A stretch of DNA of 64,000 nt from Candidatus Multivorans sp. (GCA_965224025.1 OZ245033.1:4128001-4192000); one strand, 5' to 3'. Shown: positions 6,217 through 63,733, counted from the first letter of the stretch. Notes: generated by a model from the sequence alone, not told the origin. A program made the numbers and translations.

Positions 6217-6334
6217 TTGTTCCATGCAAGTATGGCCCGGACCGTGATCGGCGTTCTGACGCTGGCGGCGCGGCTCTTGCCGCGACCCCGTATGCAAGAG
6301 TAACGTTTCCGCTGCGGTCTCTGTCCAGCGCGAC
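6217..6334 (+). ncRNA. Orphan IS110 right-end / bridge-RNA donor-loop fragment
   Basis: 6217-6230 identical to IS110 right end 35120-35133; 6229-6334 aligns ungapped to 33623-33728 (94/106 by hand count). Confidence 0.7.
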
Positions 6335-6359
6335 CGTTTGAATCGTACAGGAGTGCCTC

Positions 6360-31855: not shown

Positions 31856-33478
31856 ATGATTCCCATCCCGGACCTTCTCAACCGGGCGCCCTTCCTCGGC
31901 ATCGACGAGAAGGCTCTGTCGGACCTGCTGGGTCTCGCCGTTCTCGGCCGCGAGGTCGGCACCGAGTTCCATGACCTGATGGCGGAAGCCGAGACGCCGG
32001 AGGCGGCCTGGCGGCCCGAGTTCTTCGAACAGGATCTGTTCATCGACCGCCTGATCGCGGAGAGCTTCGAACTGCGAATCGACGGCGTTCACTACCCGAT
32101 CAACGAGCGCTTCCTGCACCGCGCCCTGACCGCCACGCCGACCGACCTGCAGACGATCAGCTTCCGCCAGGGGATCCTGCGCGAACTGGACGAGGACGAG
32201 GAAGTCCTCGCCTCGGCCGAACGCCTCTACCGCGAGCTGTTCGGTCTGCTCTCGCTTCACCGCATGCCCCGCTACCACAGCGTCCTCGATACGGCGTCCC
32301 ACAACCTGGACATCCTCAGGCAGAGCCGTCTCGTCATCGACCTGATGCACGATCGCTTCGAGACGGTCCGCTCGGGACTCCGACGACTGTACGAAGGGGC
32401 AGTCGCGATCCGCGCGACCGAGGAGTACGCGACCCTTGCCGCCCTTCTCGACTACGAGAGCAAGCTCGCCGAACTGAACCTCGACATCACTCTCGGCGGC
32501 GACGGGCGCATCCGCGGCCTCGAGGTGCGCTCCCTCGAGGAGTGCCGTGACAATCCGTTCTGGACCCGGCCGATCAAGCGGCTCTGGAGCCGCGCTCGGC
32601 TCGGCCTCGGCGGCTACTCGATGGGCAACCGGGAACTCCTGAACCGGGTCGTCGAGCGGGTCTACGTCTCTCTGTCGCCCGCCCTGATACCCCTGATCCA
32701 GATGCTCGGCCAACTGGAGCTCTACCTCGCCTCCCGCGCTCTCCGTGACCGCGCCGCCGAGCGCGGTCTCTCCATGTGCATTCCCGAGTTCCGGCCGGAA
32801 CATGATGGCGACTCCGCAATCGAGTGTGAACACCTGTTCAACCCGCTGCTGCTGACCCAGGAGCTGGCGCCCGTGCCGTGTACGGTGAGAACGGTCGGTA
32901 GCGTGCCGATCACCGTGGTCACCGGTCCGAACTCGGGAGGCAAGACGCGGCTGATCCAGGCCATCGCGCTGGCTCAACTGCTCGGTCAGTCCGGCCTCTA
33001 CGCGCCCTGCAGCCGCGCCCGGATGCGCGTCCGGCAGGGGCTGTTCGTGTCCCTGATCGAGCGCGAAAGCGCGGATCAGGTCGAGGGCCGCCTGGGGCGC
33101 GAACTCGTGCGCATCCGCACCCTCTTCGAAGAGATGGAGCATGGCTCGATGGTGGTCCTGGACGAGCTGTGCTCGGGCACCAACCCTTCGGAGGGAATCG
33201 AGGTCTTCACTCTCGTGCTCCAGCTCCTCCGGCGTGTCCAGCCCGTGGCCTACGTAACCACCCACTTCCTCGACCACGCCCGCGCCCTCCAGCAGAACCA
33301 CATGGAACTGGGCCTCGAGTTCCTCCAGGTACAGCTCGACGACGAGCGCCGGAGCACCTATCAGTTCAAGGGCGGCGTCGCCCGCACGTCCCTGGCGGCG
33401 CTCACCGCGGAGCGGCTCGGCGTCACCTTCGAGAACCTATCGGCAGCTGTCGACGAGCGCCGGGCGAAGGCCGGCTAG
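31856..33478 (+). CDS. Truncated MutS-family ATPase (domain V with helical N-terminus)
   Basis: TGPNSGGKT, VLDELCSGT, VTTHF; no mismatch-recognition or Smr domain evident. Confidence 0.85.
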   Translation: MIPIPDLLNRAPFLGIDEKALSDLLGLAVLGREVGTEFHDLMAEAETPEAAWRPEFFEQDLFIDRLIAESFELRIDGVHYPINERFLHRALTATPTDLQTISFRQGILRELDEDEEVLASAERLYRELFGLLSLHRMPRYHSVLDTASHNLDILRQSRLVIDLMHDRFETVRSGLRRLYEGAVAIRATEEYATLAALLDYESKLAELNLDITLGGDGRIRGLEVRSLEECRDNPFWTRPIKRLWSRARLGLGGYSMGNRELLNRVVERVYVSLSPALIPLIQMLGQLELYLASRALRDRAAERGLSMCIPEFRPEHDGDSAIECEHLFNPLLLTQELAPVPCTVRTVGSVPITVVTGPNSGGKTRLIQAIALAQLLGQSGLYAPCSRARMRVRQGLFVSLIERESADQVEGRLGRELVRIRTLFEEMEHGSMVVLDELCSGTNPSEGIEVFTLVLQLLRRVQPVAYVTTHFLDHARALQQNHMELGLEFLQVQLDDERRSTYQFKGGVARTSLAALTAERLGVTFENLSAAVDERRAKAG

Positions 33479-33519
33479 GAGTGTCCGCAGCGTTGTCGCT
33501 GCGCTGTCGCGCAGGGAAC
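33478..33519 (+). repeat. 45-bp dispersed repeat, copy 2
   Basis: Matches 5835-5879 and the reverse complement of 35345-35389. Confidence 0.75.
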
Positions 33520-33570
33520 AGGCAGCGAGTAGCCAACGTTACAGCGGCGTCGTGGGTTCATAGAGTTGGC

Positions 33571-33726
33571 CGCGCTGGGCAGCGAGGCCGCGCAGGCACT
33601 GGTGTGTTGGCGCCCGACTAGGAGTTTGGCCCGGACCGTGATCGGCGCTCTGACGCTGGCGGCGCGGCTTGTGTCGCGACCCCGTATGCAAGATTGAGCT
33701 TTTCGCCGCGGTCTCTGCCCAGCGCG
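33571..33726 (+). ncRNA. IS110 bridge-RNA-like non-coding RNA
   Basis: -10-like TAGAGT at 33561-33566; closing helix 33571-33592 with 33707-33726; two internal-loop domains; second loop matches IS ends. Confidence 0.72.
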
Positions 33727-33759
33727 ACGATTGGATTCCACATCTACGGGAGGCAGGGG

Positions 33760-35079
33760 ATGGCAAAGCGGAAGGCGGAGCGTCTGGAAGTCGTTCACCC
33801 GGATTGCGCCGGTGTGGACGTAGGCAAGCGCAAGCACTACGTGGCGGTGGCCCCGTCGCGTTTCGAGCGGCCGGTGCGCAATTTCTCGTCGTTCACGGAG
33901 GACCTCGAGGCGATGGCCTCGTGGCTTCAGGAGTGCGGCGTGCGTGAGGTGGCGCTGGAGTCGACGGGGGTGTACTGGATTCCGGTGTTCGAGGTGCTGG
34001 ACCGGGCGGGGTTCGAGGTGCATCTGGTGAATCCTCGGGCGACCAAGCAGGTGAGTGGCCGCAAGAGTGACGTTCTGGACTGCCAGTGGATCCGGCAGTT
34101 GATGAGCTACGGGCTCCTGCGCGGTGCGTTTCGCGCGCCGGACGAGTTGTGTCCGCTGCGTTCGTACACGCGGCAGCGCGCCCAGTTGGTCCGCGACCGC
34201 AGCCGCGCGGTGCAGCACATCCAGAAGGCTCTGGTGCAGATGAACGTGCAGTTGGACAACGTGCTGAGCGACATCATGGGCAAGACCGGCCAGTTGATCG
34301 TGCGCGCGATCGTCGCCGGCGAGCGCGACGGCGCGGCGCTGGCCCGTCACCGGGACGGTCGCTGCAAGGCTGGTCCGGCTGTGATCGCGGCGAGTTTGCA
34401 AGGCAACTGGCGAGACGAGCACCTGTTCGCTCTGGGCCAGGCGCTGGCCCGCTACGACATGCTGCAAGGCCAGATCGAGATGTGCGAGAAGCGCATCGAC
34501 GCCGAGCTCGACGGCCTGGCCCAAGACGGCGTCGAGGACGCGCCGCCGCCCGGTTCGAAGGCGCGCGAGCGCGCCCTGCGGAAGCGGCTGCATCGCATGC
34601 TCGGCGTGGACCTGGTCGCCATTCCGACGGTCGGCGTCGAAACCGCGCTGACCTTCGCCGCTGAGATCGGCCCGGACCTGTCCCGGTTTCCCTCGCAGGG
34701 CAACTTCTGCTCGTGGCTGTGTCTGGCTCCACCGACCAACATCAGCGGCGACAAACGGCTGAACGGCCCTCCCGTGAAGCAGACCAACCGGGTCGGCCAG
34801 ACGCTGCGCCAAGCCGCCACCACAGCCCGCAACAGCAAGACCGCCATCGGAGCCTCTCACCGCCGGCGTCTCCAGCACATGGAGAAGGCGAAGGCCATCA
34901 AGGCCACCGCTCATCAACTCGGCCGACTGATCTACGCCATGCTGACCCACGGCGAAGAGTACGTCGAGCGCGACCTCGCCGAAATGGAGGCCGTCCGACG
35001 CGAACGACAAATCAGAAACCTGCAGCGTCAGGCCCGCCGCCTGAATCTGGCTCTCGTGCCGACCGAACATGCCGCCTGA
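33760..35079 (+). CDS. IS110-family transposase/recombinase
   Basis: GVDVGK, LESTG, KSDVLDC (DEDD RuvC), IPTVG, LCLAP...ISG Tnp serine motif; GGAGG SD. Confidence 0.95.
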   Translation: MAKRKAERLEVVHPDCAGVDVGKRKHYVAVAPSRFERPVRNFSSFTEDLEAMASWLQECGVREVALESTGVYWIPVFEVLDRAGFEVHLVNPRATKQVSGRKSDVLDCQWIRQLMSYGLLRGAFRAPDELCPLRSYTRQRAQLVRDRSRAVQHIQKALVQMNVQLDNVLSDIMGKTGQLIVRAIVAGERDGAALARHRDGRCKAGPAVIAASLQGNWRDEHLFALGQALARYDMLQGQIEMCEKRIDAELDGLAQDGVEDAPPPGSKARERALRKRLHRMLGVDLVAIPTVGVETALTFAAEIGPDLSRFPSQGNFCSWLCLAPPTNISGDKRLNGPPVKQTNRVGQTLRQAATTARNSKTAIGASHRRRLQHMEKAKAIKATAHQLGRLIYAMLTHGEEYVERDLAEMEAVRRERQIRNLQRQARRLNLALVPTEHAA

Positions 35080-35159
35080 ATCGCGCAACCTGCGCTGCCA
35101 ACAAGGAACCCCTACCCGTTTGTTCCATGCAAGACTGCGCTGCGTCCGCGCAGCGCTGA

Positions 35160-35280
35160 CTTGCATGGAACTGGTCGCCGACTGGGTGCGCGGGTCTTCT
35201 GACCCGCTGCCGCCGGAGGCGGCCAGAGATACGTGCCGGCCGTCAGGCCGGCTCCGCTTTGGCGGCCAGTTCCATACAAG
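35160..35280 (+). repeat. Cloverleaf structured repeat, copy 2
   Basis: Terminal IR cttgcatggaactgg...ccagttccatacaag enclosing three hairpins. Confidence 0.75.
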
Positions 35281-35344
35281 CTTGCGCGACAGAACGATCT
35301 GACCTGGGAACCCGTGTGGCGCGCCCGCATCCGGACGCCGCGTC

Positions 35345-35389
35345 GTTCCCTGCGCGACAGCGCAGCGGACCGCCGCTGTGGATACTCCC
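35345..35389 (-). repeat. 45-bp dispersed repeat, copy 3 (inverted)
   Basis: Reverse complement is nearly identical to 5835-5879. Confidence 0.8.
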
Positions 35390-35400
35390 AGGCGCCGGCT

Positions 35401-36092
35401 TCAGTATGGGACGCCGGTCGCCCGGCAGACGAAGCGCATCAGGGGGGACGCGGCCGCGCAGAGGCCGGTGAACTCGTCGAGGAAGCCGCGGCTTAGCAGG
35501 CGGGTCTGGTTCAGGTTGGCCACGGCCATGAACGACTTGCGCTTGATGTCGTCGATCCGCGGGTGACGGGCGTCGAATCCCCGCGGCGCCCGCTTCAGAC
35601 TCTCGCCGCCGAGTTCGAGCAAGTCGCCGAGCCCCGGGTCGACGGTCACCTCCCGCCAGCCCTCGCCATCGGCGACGATCTGCTGCCGGATCGCCCGCAG
35701 GGCCTCCGGATGCGGTCGCCACATTCCCCCGCCCATGAACACGCTGCCGGGCTCGATGTGGAGATAGAAGCCCGGCGCGTGGGCGTCCTTGTGCTGCTTG
35801 TGGCGGAAGTGAATGCCCACCTGGGTCTTGTAGGGGCTCTTGTCGCGCGAGAACCGGACGTCGCGGTGGATCCGGAACAGCGACCCGCCGACCTTCTTCG
35901 GCACTGCGTCGAAGTGCTTCGACACCTCGTCGAGCCGGGTCCCGAAGTCGCTGATGAACTGGAGCGCGGGCTCCCGCACCACGTCCTCGTAGCGCTCGCC
36001 GTTGGCCTTGAACCAGTCGCGGTCGTGTTCTCCACGAGGTCGCGCAGAAAGGCGAATGTCTCGCGCGAGAACGGGTTCTTCCATTGATCCAT
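35401..36092 (-). pseudogene. DUF2461/TIGR02453 family protein, frameshifted near 36027
   Basis: N-terminus FSRETFAFLRDLVEN in one frame, DRDWFKAN...FRIHRDVRFSRDKSPYKT in another; a single missing base would restore NNDRDWF. Confidence 0.85.
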
Positions 36093-62949: not shown

Positions 62950-63720
62950 GTGGCTTACGACGCATTCGACCTGAGCGGCACCGTGGCGCTGGTGACCGGC
63001 GGCAACTCCGGCATCGGACTGGGCTTCGCCGAGGGCCTGGCGCAGGCGGGCGCCGATGTCTGCATCTGGGGAACCAACGAGACGAAGAACGCGACTGCAA
63101 AGGAGCAGTTGGAGCGCCATGGCACGAAGGTCGAGGCCCTGCGCTGCGACGTCGGCGACGCCGACGCGGTGGCCGCATCGTTCGAGCGCACCATCGAACT
63201 GCTGGGCAAGGTCGATTCCTGCTTTGCCAACGCCGGCATCGGCGGCCGCGGCACGCCCTTCGTGGACATGTCGATGGAAGAGTGGCGCCGGATCTTCCAG
63301 GTCAACATGGAGGGCGTCTTTCAGACCTTCCAGCAGGCGATCCGGCACATGGTGGAGCGCGGCGAAGGCGGCGTCCTGGTCGCCACGAGCAGCCTGTCCG
63401 CCATCTTCGGCGCACCCCGCAGCGAGCACTACGCGTCGACCAAGGCAGGGCTCAACGCGATGGTCCGCGGTCTTTCGGTCGAGCACGCCCGCCACGGCAT
63501 CCGGGTCAACTCGATCCTGCCCGGCTGGATCGACACCGCGATGACCGAGCGGGCGATCAACACCGAGGCCTTCCAGACCAAGGTCCTGCGCCGCGTCCCG
63601 CTGCGTCGCTGGGGCGTCGGCTCGGACTTCAGTGGCATCGCCGTCTACCTGGCCAGCAACGCATCCAGCTACCACACAGGGGACGAGTTCGTGATCGACG
63701 GCGGCTACGCCTGTTTCTAG
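62950..63720 (+). CDS. SDR-family oxidoreductase
   Basis: TGGNSGIG, NAG, YASTK, DGG. Confidence 0.94.
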   Translation: MAYDAFDLSGTVALVTGGNSGIGLGFAEGLAQAGADVCIWGTNETKNATAKEQLERHGTKVEALRCDVGDADAVAASFERTIELLGKVDSCFANAGIGGRGTPFVDMSMEEWRRIFQVNMEGVFQTFQQAIRHMVERGEGGVLVATSSLSAIFGAPRSEHYASTKAGLNAMVRGLSVEHARHGIRVNSILPGWIDTAMTERAINTEAFQTKVLRRVPLRRWGVGSDFSGIAVYLASNASSYHTGDEFVIDGGYACF

Positions 63721-63733
63721 GAGCTTGCGCGGA

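What the first reader, a model, noticed from the sequence alone, without database searches (positions are those of the whole stretch)
33531..35133. IS110 recombinase with a readable bridge-RNA-like guide: two loops and an AG core
Seen: a ~155-nt RNA closed by a long helix (33571-33592 with 33707-33726). Loop 2 strand ATGCAAGA (33686-33693) equals the right end (35127-35134). Strand TGACGCTGGC (33651-33660) is complementary to the left end GCCAACGTTA (33532-33541; 8/10 plus one wobble). This predicts a donor junction CCATGCA-AG-CCAACGTTA. Loop 1 strands CTGGTG and CTAGGAG predict a target like CTRGG-AG-CRCCRG, resembling the CTGGG-starting REP-like repeats here. CTAGGAG occurs at 33475 and 63717, both overlapping TAG stops. 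Established: IS110/IS621 bridge RNAs program target and donor recognition, with a CT core. Notable here: the enclosing helix and the guide order read reversed relative to the transposase strand (AG is CT on the other strand). The actual flanks (GCGAGT-AG-ACTGCG) do not fit loop 1, suggesting off-target or in-trans insertion.
Basis: partly seen in the sequence, partly recalled or inferred. Interest (0 to 1): 0.82.

Follow-up and report, generated by a model that had tools for sequence, protein, structure and literature searches.

The report
Active IS110 element with bridge RNA
This is a working copy of a known kind of jumping gene that uses its own small RNA to choose where it inserts.

Summary
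A real IS110-family insertion sequence lies at 33482-35133 (1652 bp, AG at both junctions). The genome holds 14 near-identical copies. Its left end encodes a ~160-nt structured RNA (33568-33729) on the transposase strand, supported by covariation in 31 relatives.

Three unpaired segments act as guides:
- CUAGGAG (33618-24) equals the left flank plus core.
- GCGCAGGC (33590-97) is complementary to core G plus the right flank.
- AUGCAAG (33686-92) equals the right end plus core.

Across 46 related loci the first and third co-vary with their DNA partners (40/46 and 41/46 exact; 13 and 8 distinct 7-mers).

The left end at 33532, the "TGACGCTGGC" donor guide, the CTGGTG guide, the inner closing helix and the "off-target insertion" idea are wrong. 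The CTAGGAG at 33475 is the actual junction and fits the guide perfectly. The one at 63717 is a predicted empty target.

AG ends, a 40-nt left-end box, a 16-nt right-end box and small modules moved in trans match what is published for ISPpu9. The reversed guide order is published for IS1111-type seekRNAs. This is a new member of a known kind.

The parts
33475..33479 (+). Left half of the target (CTAGG). TAG at 33476-78 is the stop codon of the upstream MutS-domain gene.
   Evidence: All 14 copies share it, with unrelated sequence upstream. It has the same letters as RNA 33618-22. Six same-genus genomes have no insertion after this gene.
33480..33481 (+). Left copy of the AG core dinucleotide
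   Evidence: AG is the only sequence common to the left junction (CTAGG-AG) and the right end (ATGCA-AG). Both 3' guide strands end in AG in all 31 aligned relatives.
33482..33519 (+). Left-end 'A box': palindrome GCAGCG-TTGT-CGCTGC (33487-33502) and subterminal inverted repeat GCAGGGAAC (33511-19)
   Evidence: Conserved architecture in relatives, with changed but still palindromic arms. The GGAAC motif co-varies with the right-end GTTCC motif.
33561..33566 (+). Possible -10 box (TAGAGT) of an internal promoter for the RNA. Inferred only.
   Evidence: Relatives carry TATAAA-like motifs 5-8 nt before the first helix. The consensus promoter scan found none here.
33568..33729 (+). Bridge-RNA-like structured RNA: closing helix, target loop hairpin, donor loop hairpin
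   Evidence: 44 pairs; 94.3% of cells paired against 84.0% in shuffles (0/500). 28 pairs have compensatory change (0/500). Slid controls give 34-45%. Invariant G-U pairs fix the + strand.
33590..33597 (+). [quoted passage not shown]
   Evidence: At least 7 of 8 positions (Watson-Crick plus G-U) in 11 of 14 copies. Only 1.4% of all AG sites in the genome reach that score.
33618..33624 (+). Target loop, 3' strand CUAGGAG: same letters as left flank plus core, so it pairs with the bottom strand
   Evidence: Exact at the own left junction in 40 of 46 related loci (13 distinct 7-mers). Guides of other classes occur in the same stretch in 16 of 598 tests.
33686..33692 (+). Donor loop, 9-nt bulge carrying AUGCAAG: same letters as right end plus core
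   Evidence: Exact at the own right end in 41 of 46 related loci (8 distinct 7-mers). Other-class guides occur in 8 of 414 tests.
33760..35079 (+). IS110-family DEDD transposase/recombinase, 439 aa
   Evidence: IS621 transposase in the PDB matches with E 1.1e-8.
35118..35133 (+). Right-end 'B box' GTTTGTTCCATGCAAG, with subterminal repeat GTTCC (35122-26), left donor ATGCA (35127-31) and the right AG core (35132-33)
   Evidence: Identity among the 14 copies ends at 35133. The diverged sister copy ends with the same 15 bases (TTTGTTCCATGCAAG).
35134..35141 (+). Right half of the target (ACTGCGCT), the start of a REP-like palindrome
   Evidence: Right flanks of the 14 copies follow nnTGCGCGGCAG and are complementary to 33590-96.
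63717..63731 (+). Predicted unoccupied target CTAGG-AG-CTTGCGCG, at the stop codon of ORF 62950-63720
   Evidence: 8 of 8 complementarity of the right half to the 5' guide; sequence and ORF.

Best explanation
The element at 33482-35133 is an active bridge/seek-RNA-guided insertion sequence of the IS110 family, of the ISPpu9-like type.

Its left end is transcribed on the transposase strand into a ~160-nt RNA. The RNA consists of a closing helix that encloses two hairpins.

The first hairpin carries an internal loop that reads the target:
[quoted passage not shown] The second hairpin carries a 9-nt bulge. [quoted passage not shown]

The DEDD recombinase bound to this RNA exchanges strands at the AG core (CT on the other strand). 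It joins the circularised element (junction ...CCATGCA-AG-TGTCCGC...) to CTAGG-AG-CYTGCGC sites. These sites lie at the start of REP-like palindromes just after stop codons.

In RNA terms the loops match IS621: the 5' strand ends opposite core G and the 3' strand ends in AG. The recombination sites, however, are inverted relative to the gene. That is why the core reads AG and the guide order looks reversed.

Shown here: element ends, copy number, RNA structure by covariation, guide-to-flank covariation, and empty target sites. Inferred from homology to IS621, ISEc11/ISEc21 and ISPpu9: transcription, RNA-protein complex formation, circle formation and the strand-exchange chemistry.
For: Ends and copies:
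- 14 copies at 99.87-100% identity, plus one 85% sister.
- Identity runs from 33475 to 35133, with unrelated upstream flanks and REP-like downstream flanks.
- Unitigs of run X1 start at 33475 and end at 35133. X1 is probably the source sample, so this is not independent.

Protein.

RNA structure: (94.3% paired; 28 of 44 pairs compensatory; 0/500 shuffles reach this).

Guides:
- The 3' target strand matches its own left junction in 40 of 46 loci across 13 sequence classes. The donor strand matches its own right end in 41 of 46 loci across 8 classes. Cross-class controls are 2.7% and 1.9%.
- Closely related pairs differ only in the guide and have matching flanks. L032 carries ATGCAAG and L033 carries CTAGGAG. 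The sister copy in this genome carries AATGCAAG and sits right after ...GTTCCATGCAAG.
- The 5' target strand reaches at least 7 of 8 in 11 of 14 copies, against 1.4% of all AG sites.

Empty sites: 26 of the 108 CTAGGAG sites that are neither copy junctions nor guide-coding DNA are followed by a right half with at least 7 of 8 complementarity.

Orthologous locus: in 6 same-genus genomes the two flanking genes abut.

Literature:
- PMC11208160 (passages) for loop logic.
- PMC13626964 (passages) for the LE-gene-RE layout and junction naming.
- PMC11187229 (abstract and sections 6, 9 and 12 read) for reversed order.
- PMC12288879 (passages) for AG ends, A and B boxes and modular circles of ISPpu9.
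Against: - No RNA data: no listed run is on record as RNA. The consensus promoter scan found no promoter in 33400-35250.
- No Rfam family matches (5 matches, all far below gathering score).
- No guide for the left end of the element was found in the RNA. The expected 5' donor strand is conserved and mostly paired, so one of the four IS621-type pairings is missing or works differently.
- Outside this genome the 5' target strand fits its right flank only weakly. It reaches at least 7 of 8 in 11 of 41 loci, against 12.8% of cross-class pairs.
- The base after the C that faces core G is a conserved A, so it cannot pair with core A.
- Homology to ISPpu9 itself was not tested, because no ISPpu9 sequence was at hand.
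Confidence: 0.86

Rival explanations
1. The element starts at 33532, TGACGCUGGC guides the left end GCCAACGTTA, CTGGTG is the second target guide, and this copy sits at a non-cognate site (off-target or in-trans insertion).
For: 8 of 10 complementarity between 33651-60 and 33532-41 (read by eye). The long helix also appears in the single-sequence fold.
Against: All 14 copies share 57 more bases to the left, and the junction CTAGG-AG fits the guide exactly. 33532-41 is not conserved in relatives. TGACGCTGG is conserved while left ends vary. The inner helix lacks compensatory changes.
Confidence: 0.02
2. The transposase gene and RNA (about 33523-35117) form an element nested inside a separate 59-bp REP-like module. 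The A and B boxes would then belong to that module, not to the insertion sequence.
For: 59-bp modules made of an A-box-like start fused to a B-box end exist without any gene. There are 20 module starts, and 13 of the 37 exact B-box copies end such modules.
Against: Every relative with intact ends carries both boxes around the gene. Its donor guide specifies the last 7 bases of its own B box across 8 sequence classes. The subterminal repeats co-vary between the two ends. The boxes are 100% identical in the 14 copies while free modules vary.
Confidence: 0.04
3. The structured left end is only a 5' untranslated region that controls transposase translation, as described for ISPpu9. Target choice would be made by the protein.
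For: The ISPpu9 5' UTR is reported to fold and inhibit translation (PMC12288879, passages). No RNA data exist here.
Against: Unpaired strands co-vary with flank and end sequences in 13 and 8 classes. A purely regulatory fold does not predict this. The two roles are not exclusive.
Confidence: 0.05
4. The guide RNA is made from the minus strand, so the order would be canonical on that strand.
For: The core reads CT on the minus strand.
Against: Three pairs are G-U or U-G in 23-31 of 31 sequences (columns 37/65, 107/151, 105/162). On the other strand these would be A-C mismatches. On the minus strand the core-pairing bases would also sit at the 5' ends of the guides, unlike IS621.
Confidence: 0.02

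Closest known systems
IS621 bridge RNA system (Durrant et al. 2024, PMC11208160; Hiraizumi et al., PMC11208158 seen only in the search listing; PMC13626964 passages read)
   Same: DEDD plus Transposase_20 recombinase. The RNA is encoded in the left end on the gene strand. The target loop comes first and the donor loop second. Guides include a 2-nt core. There are no terminal inverted repeats. The target is a REP-like sequence.
   Different: The core reads AG, not CT, on the gene strand. [quoted passage not shown] The donor loop is a 9-nt bulge, and no second guide was found. The protein is 439 aa against 326-328 aa and is only distantly related (E 1.1e-8, N-terminal domain). No junction promoter is evident.
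ISPpu9 of Pseudomonas putida KT2440 (PMC12288879, passages read)
   Same: AG at both ends in the transposase orientation. A left 'A box' (43 bp there, about 40 nt here) holds a palindrome that resembles one in the right target flank. The right 'B box' is 16 bp. Extra gene-less modules are flanked by the same boxes. The target is a REP. A native promoter, rather than a junction promoter, was reported there and is only inferred here.
   Different: No sequence comparison with ISPpu9 could be made. No ssr9-like small RNA gene is seen downstream. The modules here are 59-bp box fusions. The A-box palindrome has a different sequence.
IS1111-type seekRNAs: ISEc11, ISPa11, ISKpn4 (Siddiquee et al. 2024, PMC11187229; abstract and sections 6, 9, 12 read)
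   Same: The match to the top strand lies 5' of the match to the bottom strand. Subterminal inverted repeats are present.
   Different: Here the non-coding region lies upstream of the gene, whereas it is usually downstream in IS1111. The protein is 439 aa against 330-350 aa. The subterminal repeat is only 9-12 bp with one mismatch.
ISPpu10 (preprint 10.64898/2026.03.19.712850, sections 6 and 7 read)
   Same: A REP target in which the half read by the 5' guide is part of a stem-loop. A left end-cargo-right end cassette is captured in trans.
   Different: ISPpu10 is described with a CT core and a junction promoter, like IS621.

Membership tests
IS110 family RNA-guided transposase | DEDD RuvC-like N-terminal domain (PF01548) and C-terminal Transposase_20 domain (PF02371); NCBIfam NF033542 above its cut-off | tested here: met
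   E 1.1e-25 and 2.9e-11; 270.7 bits, cut-off 140.
IS110 family insertion sequence | No terminal inverted repeats, site-specific insertion, a short core present at both junctions | tested here: met
   AG at both junctions. 14 copies all lie at CTAGG-AG sites, 11 of them with a right half complementary to the 5' guide at 7 or more of 8 positions.
Bridge RNA (IS621 type) | Left-end RNA with two loops, supported by covariation | tested here: met
Bridge RNA (IS621 type) | Target loop pairs with both halves of the target on opposite strands | tested here: met
   The 3' strand matches in 40 of 46 loci. The 5' strand matches in 11 of 14 copies here but only weakly in other families.
Bridge RNA (IS621 type) | Donor loop pairs with both the right end and the left end of the element | tested here: not met
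   The right-end guide was found (41 of 46 loci). No left-end guide was found in column scans. The only signal is that the base after the target guide's AG equals the first base of the left end in 88% of 26 families.
Bridge RNA (IS621 type) | CT core on the gene strand, with the 5' loop strands carrying the letters of left target and left donor | tested here: not met
   The core is AG and those strands are on the 3' side. Convention taken from PMC11208160 and PMC13626964 (passages).
ISPpu9-like elements | AG at both ends; A box of about 43 bp with a palindrome; 16-bp B box; gene-less modules with the same boxes | tested here: met
   compared with the description in PMC12288879 (passages). Figures are not held.
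ISPpu9-like elements | Transposase homologous to that of ISPpu9 (PP_1133) | not testable with these tools
   No ISPpu9 sequence was available.
IS1111 group | Subterminal inverted repeats of 7-17 bp | tested here: inconclusive
   GCAGGGAAC(A) against GCATGGAAC(A) gives 9 of 10 positions. In this window alone that is not above shuffles (110 of 1000), but the motif co-varies in relatives (CAAAC, CTAAC, GAAAC).
IS1111 group | Long non-coding region downstream of the gene; transposase 330-350 aa | tested here: not met
   The left end is 278 nt (33482-33759) and the right end 54 nt. The protein is 439 aa.

The most novel reading that the evidence does not exclude
The ISPpu9-like clade may be a third architectural class of RNA-guided IS110 elements. 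It would combine a left-end-encoded bridge RNA (IS110 position) with IS1111-like polarity (AG core on the gene strand). Its donor loop would be reduced to a single bulged guide for the right end.

In this reading the left end is recognised not by RNA but through the A-box stem-loop and subterminal repeat, or because the A box mimics the right half of the target.

The genome's 59-bp REP-like modules next to stop codons would then be A-box plus B-box mini-elements moved in trans by the same RNA-protein complex. Bridge recombination would itself be seeding REP-like repeats.
Probability: 0.3. Interest if true: 0.6.

Novelty: new member of a known kind. Interest (0 to 1): 0.4.

Why it matters
- It gives a clean natural data set of guide reprogramming. 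The clade shows 13 target-guide classes and 8 donor-guide classes, each with matching DNA. This could help rules for reprogramming larger (about 440 aa) bridge recombinases.
- An element with a left-end RNA can carry its recombination sites inverted relative to the gene.
- The element's own RNA plausibly explains the spread of small REP-like modules and tandem arrays in this genome.
- For genome annotation, it fixes the true ends of a 14-copy element and predicts its free target sites.

Tried and rejected
- Rfam scan of 33000-35600 at E up to 10: 5 matches, none near its gathering score.
- Single-sequence fold of the left end: z +0.6, uninformative.
- Consensus promoter scan of 33400-35250: none found. 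By eye I found no convincing -35/-10 pair across the RE-LE joint either.
- Sequencing runs: no RNA holder listed.
- Contigs of four runs: no contig joined across the element, so no empty site for this locus. The loose ends that read CTAGGAGTCA before 35137 in X3 and X6 may come from other loci.
- Search for a left-end guide. I scanned for complementarity of 8-mers ending at each RNA alignment column to core G plus the left-end start, and to windows up to 8 nt further in. The best own-minus-others difference was 0.9 of 8, at the target loop's 5' strand. Mutual information between A-box and RNA columns gave only the one handshake-like pair.
- A same-letter resemblance exists between the conserved strand (U)GACGC / UUCAC and the A-box segment before GGGAAC (GACGC / TTCAC). 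It was seen by eye. It is partial and remains unexplained.
- Naming the clade through plasmid annotation: 502 records matched, all below 60% identity and all annotated only as 'IS110 family transposase'. One Enterobacter plasmid copy was read. It shows a similar layout, but I could not read its guides with confidence.
- Orthologous locus: 3 of the 9 loci printed (L076-L078) were shown at the wrong place because of strand. They were not examined.
- Rows dropped before the RNA alignment. Five of 59 loci lacked the anchor motif (L047, L060, L063, L069, L071). Eight further loci were excluded as spurious, truncated or interrupted (L045, L061, L052, L059, L036, L066, L034, L044).
- Papers' supplements were closed. 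Durrant's and Siddiquee's supplementary tables may already list this clade or its guide pattern.

Full report
**What is there**

The window (G000:C1:4128001-4192000) holds a 439-aa ORF at 33760-35079. It carries the two IS110 domains (PF01548, PF02371). It scores 270.7 bits on NCBIfam NF033542, 'IS110 family RNA-guided transposase', whose cut-off is 140. It is only distantly related to the solved IS621 transposase (E 1.1e-8, mainly the N-terminal domain).

The genome has 14 copies at 99.87-100% identity over 1501 bases and one sister copy at 85%. In all, 34 places match the IS110 model, including a second type with about a dozen copies.

**True ends**

I lined up the 14 copies with their flanks. 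Identity begins at CTAGGAG (33475) and ends at ...GTTCCATGCAAG (35133). Upstream flanks are unrelated. Downstream flanks follow nnTGCGCGGCAG.

AG is the only sequence shared by the left junction (CTAGG-AG) and the right end (ATGCA-AG). The element is therefore 33482-35133, which is 1652 bp with one core copy.

Unitigs of run X1 begin at 33475 and end at 35133. X1 is probably the source sample, so this agrees with the result but is not independent support.

In 6 same-genus genomes, the MutS-domain gene and the convergent DUF2461 gene abut. Three further loci were printed at the wrong place and were not read. In this window, 1.9 kb separates those two genes: the element plus about 267 bp of REP-like modules.

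**The RNA**

A single-sequence fold says nothing (z +0.6) and Rfam has no match.

A scan of species-representative genomes with the protein gave 59 related loci at 44-86% identity. Five lacked the conserved anchor. Eight were spurious, truncated or interrupted. After I removed identical rows, 31 sequences including the window were aligned.

RNAalifold gives 44 pairs. On that structure:
- 94.3% of cells pair, against 84.0% in shuffles (0 of 500 reach it).
- 28 pairs carry compensatory changes, against 15.8 in shuffles (0 of 500).
- Partners slid by 1-3 columns pair in only 34-45% of cells.

In window coordinates the helices are:

| Helix | 5' side | 3' side |
|---|---|---|
| Closing helix | 33568-79 | 33718-29 |
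| Target hairpin, base | 33586-89 | 33628-31 |
| Target hairpin, cap | 33600-06 | 33611-16 |
| Donor hairpin, base | 33634-37 | 33710-13 |
| Donor hairpin, second stem | 33644-47 | 33704-07 |
| Donor hairpin, third stem | 33654-56 | 33694-96 |
| Donor hairpin, cap stem | 33657-68 | 33673-84 |

The unpaired strands are GCGCAGGCAC (33590-99), ACUAGGAGUUU (33617-27) and the bulge UAUGCAAGA (33685-93).

Invariant G-U pairs show that the + strand is the RNA strand.

**Guides**

The 7-mer at 33618-24 equals the left flank plus core. Across 46 related loci, the equivalent 7-mer is found exactly at its own left junction in 40. This covers 13 different 7-mers. Five of the six misses differ by one base at the expected place when read by eye, and one is unclear. 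Guides of other classes occur in the same 260-nt stretch in 16 of 598 tests.

The 7-mer at 33686-92 equals the right end plus core. Its equivalent is exact in 41 of 46 loci, covering 8 different 7-mers. Two of the five misses differ by one base, and three lack the end in the fetched DNA. The cross-class control is 8 of 414.

Close relatives that differ only in the guide have matching flanks. L032 and L033 are one such pair. Another is the sister copy in this genome. Its left end at C1:909026 carries AAUGCAAG and sits directly after a ...GTTCCATGCAAG right end.

The 5' strand GCGCAGGC is complementary to core G plus the right flank. It scores at least 7 of 8 (Watson-Crick plus G-U) in 11 of 14 copies. 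Only 1.4% of all AG sites in the genome reach that score. In other families the fit is weak: 11 of 41 loci reach 7 of 8, against 12.8% of cross-class pairs. Two relatives do differ by one base in the guide (GCAGG against GCACG), and their flanks differ to match (CCTGC against CGTGC) (L029, L031).

**What is missing**

No strand of the RNA tracks the first bases of the left end. The 5' side of the donor loop is conserved and largely paired.

The only signal is a handshake-like one. The base after the target guide's AG equals the first base of the left end in 88% of 26 families.

The left end has two conserved features:
- A palindrome whose arms change but stay complementary.
- A GGAAC motif that co-varies with GTTCC near the right end.

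**Targets and small modules**

CTAGGAG occurs 136 times in the genome, against about 571 expected from base composition. Of these, 14 are copy junctions and 14 are the guide-coding DNA. Of the other 108, 26 are followed by a right half with at least 7 of 8 complementarity. One of them is at 63717, at the stop codon of ORF 62950-63720.

The genome also holds 59-bp modules made of an A-box-like start fused to the B-box end. There are 20 module starts. Seven are preceded by CTAGGAG, 4 by CCAGGAG and 2 by ATGCAAG.

**Comparison with what is known**

In IS621 the order is left end, gene, right end, with CT at both borders. The left target abuts the left end (PMC13626964, passages). [quoted passage not shown]

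Here the strands that carry the letters of left flank and right end are on the 3' side, and the core reads AG. In RNA terms the loops are alike: the 3' strands end in AG and the 5' target strand ends opposite core G. The simplest description is therefore that the recombination sites are inverted relative to the gene.

This is not new in kind:
- Siddiquee et al. report reversed order of the two target matches between IS1111-type and IS110-type elements (PMC11187229; abstract and sections 6, 9 and 12 read).
- ISPpu9 is published with AG at both ends, a 43-bp A box with a palindrome like that of the right target flank, a 16-bp B box, gene-less modules with the same boxes, and a native rather than a junction promoter (PMC12288879, passages).
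- ISPpu10 has CT ends (the same paper, and preprint 10.64898/2026.03.19.712850, sections 6 and 7).

A search for papers holding both 'ISPpu9' and 'bridge RNA' found 7. In the passages I read, none maps the guides of an ISPpu9-type RNA. Supplements were closed.

The same layout recurs in Pseudomonas elements at 45-58% identity. In one search, 16 of 251 genomes matched at E up to 1e-60. That count includes one unpublished genome, whose locus I did not read.

**Verdict**

This is a genuine, recently active, RNA-guided IS110-family element with readable guides. Its coordinates for the left end, two of its four guide assignments and its 'off-target' conclusion are wrong. The element is a new member of a known kind. 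The missing left-end guide and the trans-mobilised modules are the parts worth an experiment.

Noticed in passing
window 6219-6345: A remnant of a sister-type left end. It starts exactly after the AG of its target-guide-coding DNA and is fused to a ...GTTCCATGCAAG right end. This looks like recombination between a right end and the guide-coding DNA, which has the same letters as a target half-site.
   Followed up: partly
L024, L059 and L066 (related loci): Three more cases where DNA encoding the 3' target guide is itself a breakpoint. In L024 and L059 a copy or remnant begins right after its AG. In L066 a small module is inserted at CTAGG / AG-TTTGG. Guide-coding DNA seems to be a self-target.
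   Followed up: partly
G000 C1:909026-909275 and C1:2129201-2130584: The 85% sister copy is split. Its left end and its gene plus right end lie 1.2 Mb apart. Both are broken at the same ...CATTTGAAT point, next to ends of another inserted element (GGGGATTATA...). This suggests a rearrangement between two copies of that other element.
   Followed up: partly
window 35134-35400: About 267 bp of REP-like modules lie between the element and the DUF2461 gene. They include an inverted copy of the right-end 12-mer (35161-72), a right-end-like GTTCCATACAAG followed by a target-like CTTGCGCGACAGAAC (about 35268-95), and an inverted A-box-like segment ending CTCCCAG (about 35346-95). Six same-genus genomes have none of this.
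   Followed up: partly
whole genome G000: CTAGGAG is about four times rarer than base composition predicts (136 against about 571). [quoted passage not shown]
   Followed up: partly
whole genome G000: A second IS110-family type with about a dozen copies scores 171-178 bits on NF033542 (for example C1:297306-298502), alongside several fragments. I did not examine its RNA or targets.
   Followed up: no
L089, L092, L093, L096 (Pseudomonas) and L082 (Enterobacter plasmid NZ_CP135477.1): Relatives at about 45% identity sit in the ...ATATTAAAAAAC stretch of what looks like an IS3-family gene. They carry CAAAAAAC or UAAAAAAAC in the equivalent RNA strand. Their core may not be AG.
   Followed up: no
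RNA alignment A1, columns 98-106, against the A box: The conserved 5' strand of the donor hairpin ((U)GACGC, or UUCAC in a distant subclade) has the same letters as the A-box segment just before GGGAAC (GACGC, or TTCAC). The same substitutions occur in both. No pairing model explains this.
   Followed up: partly
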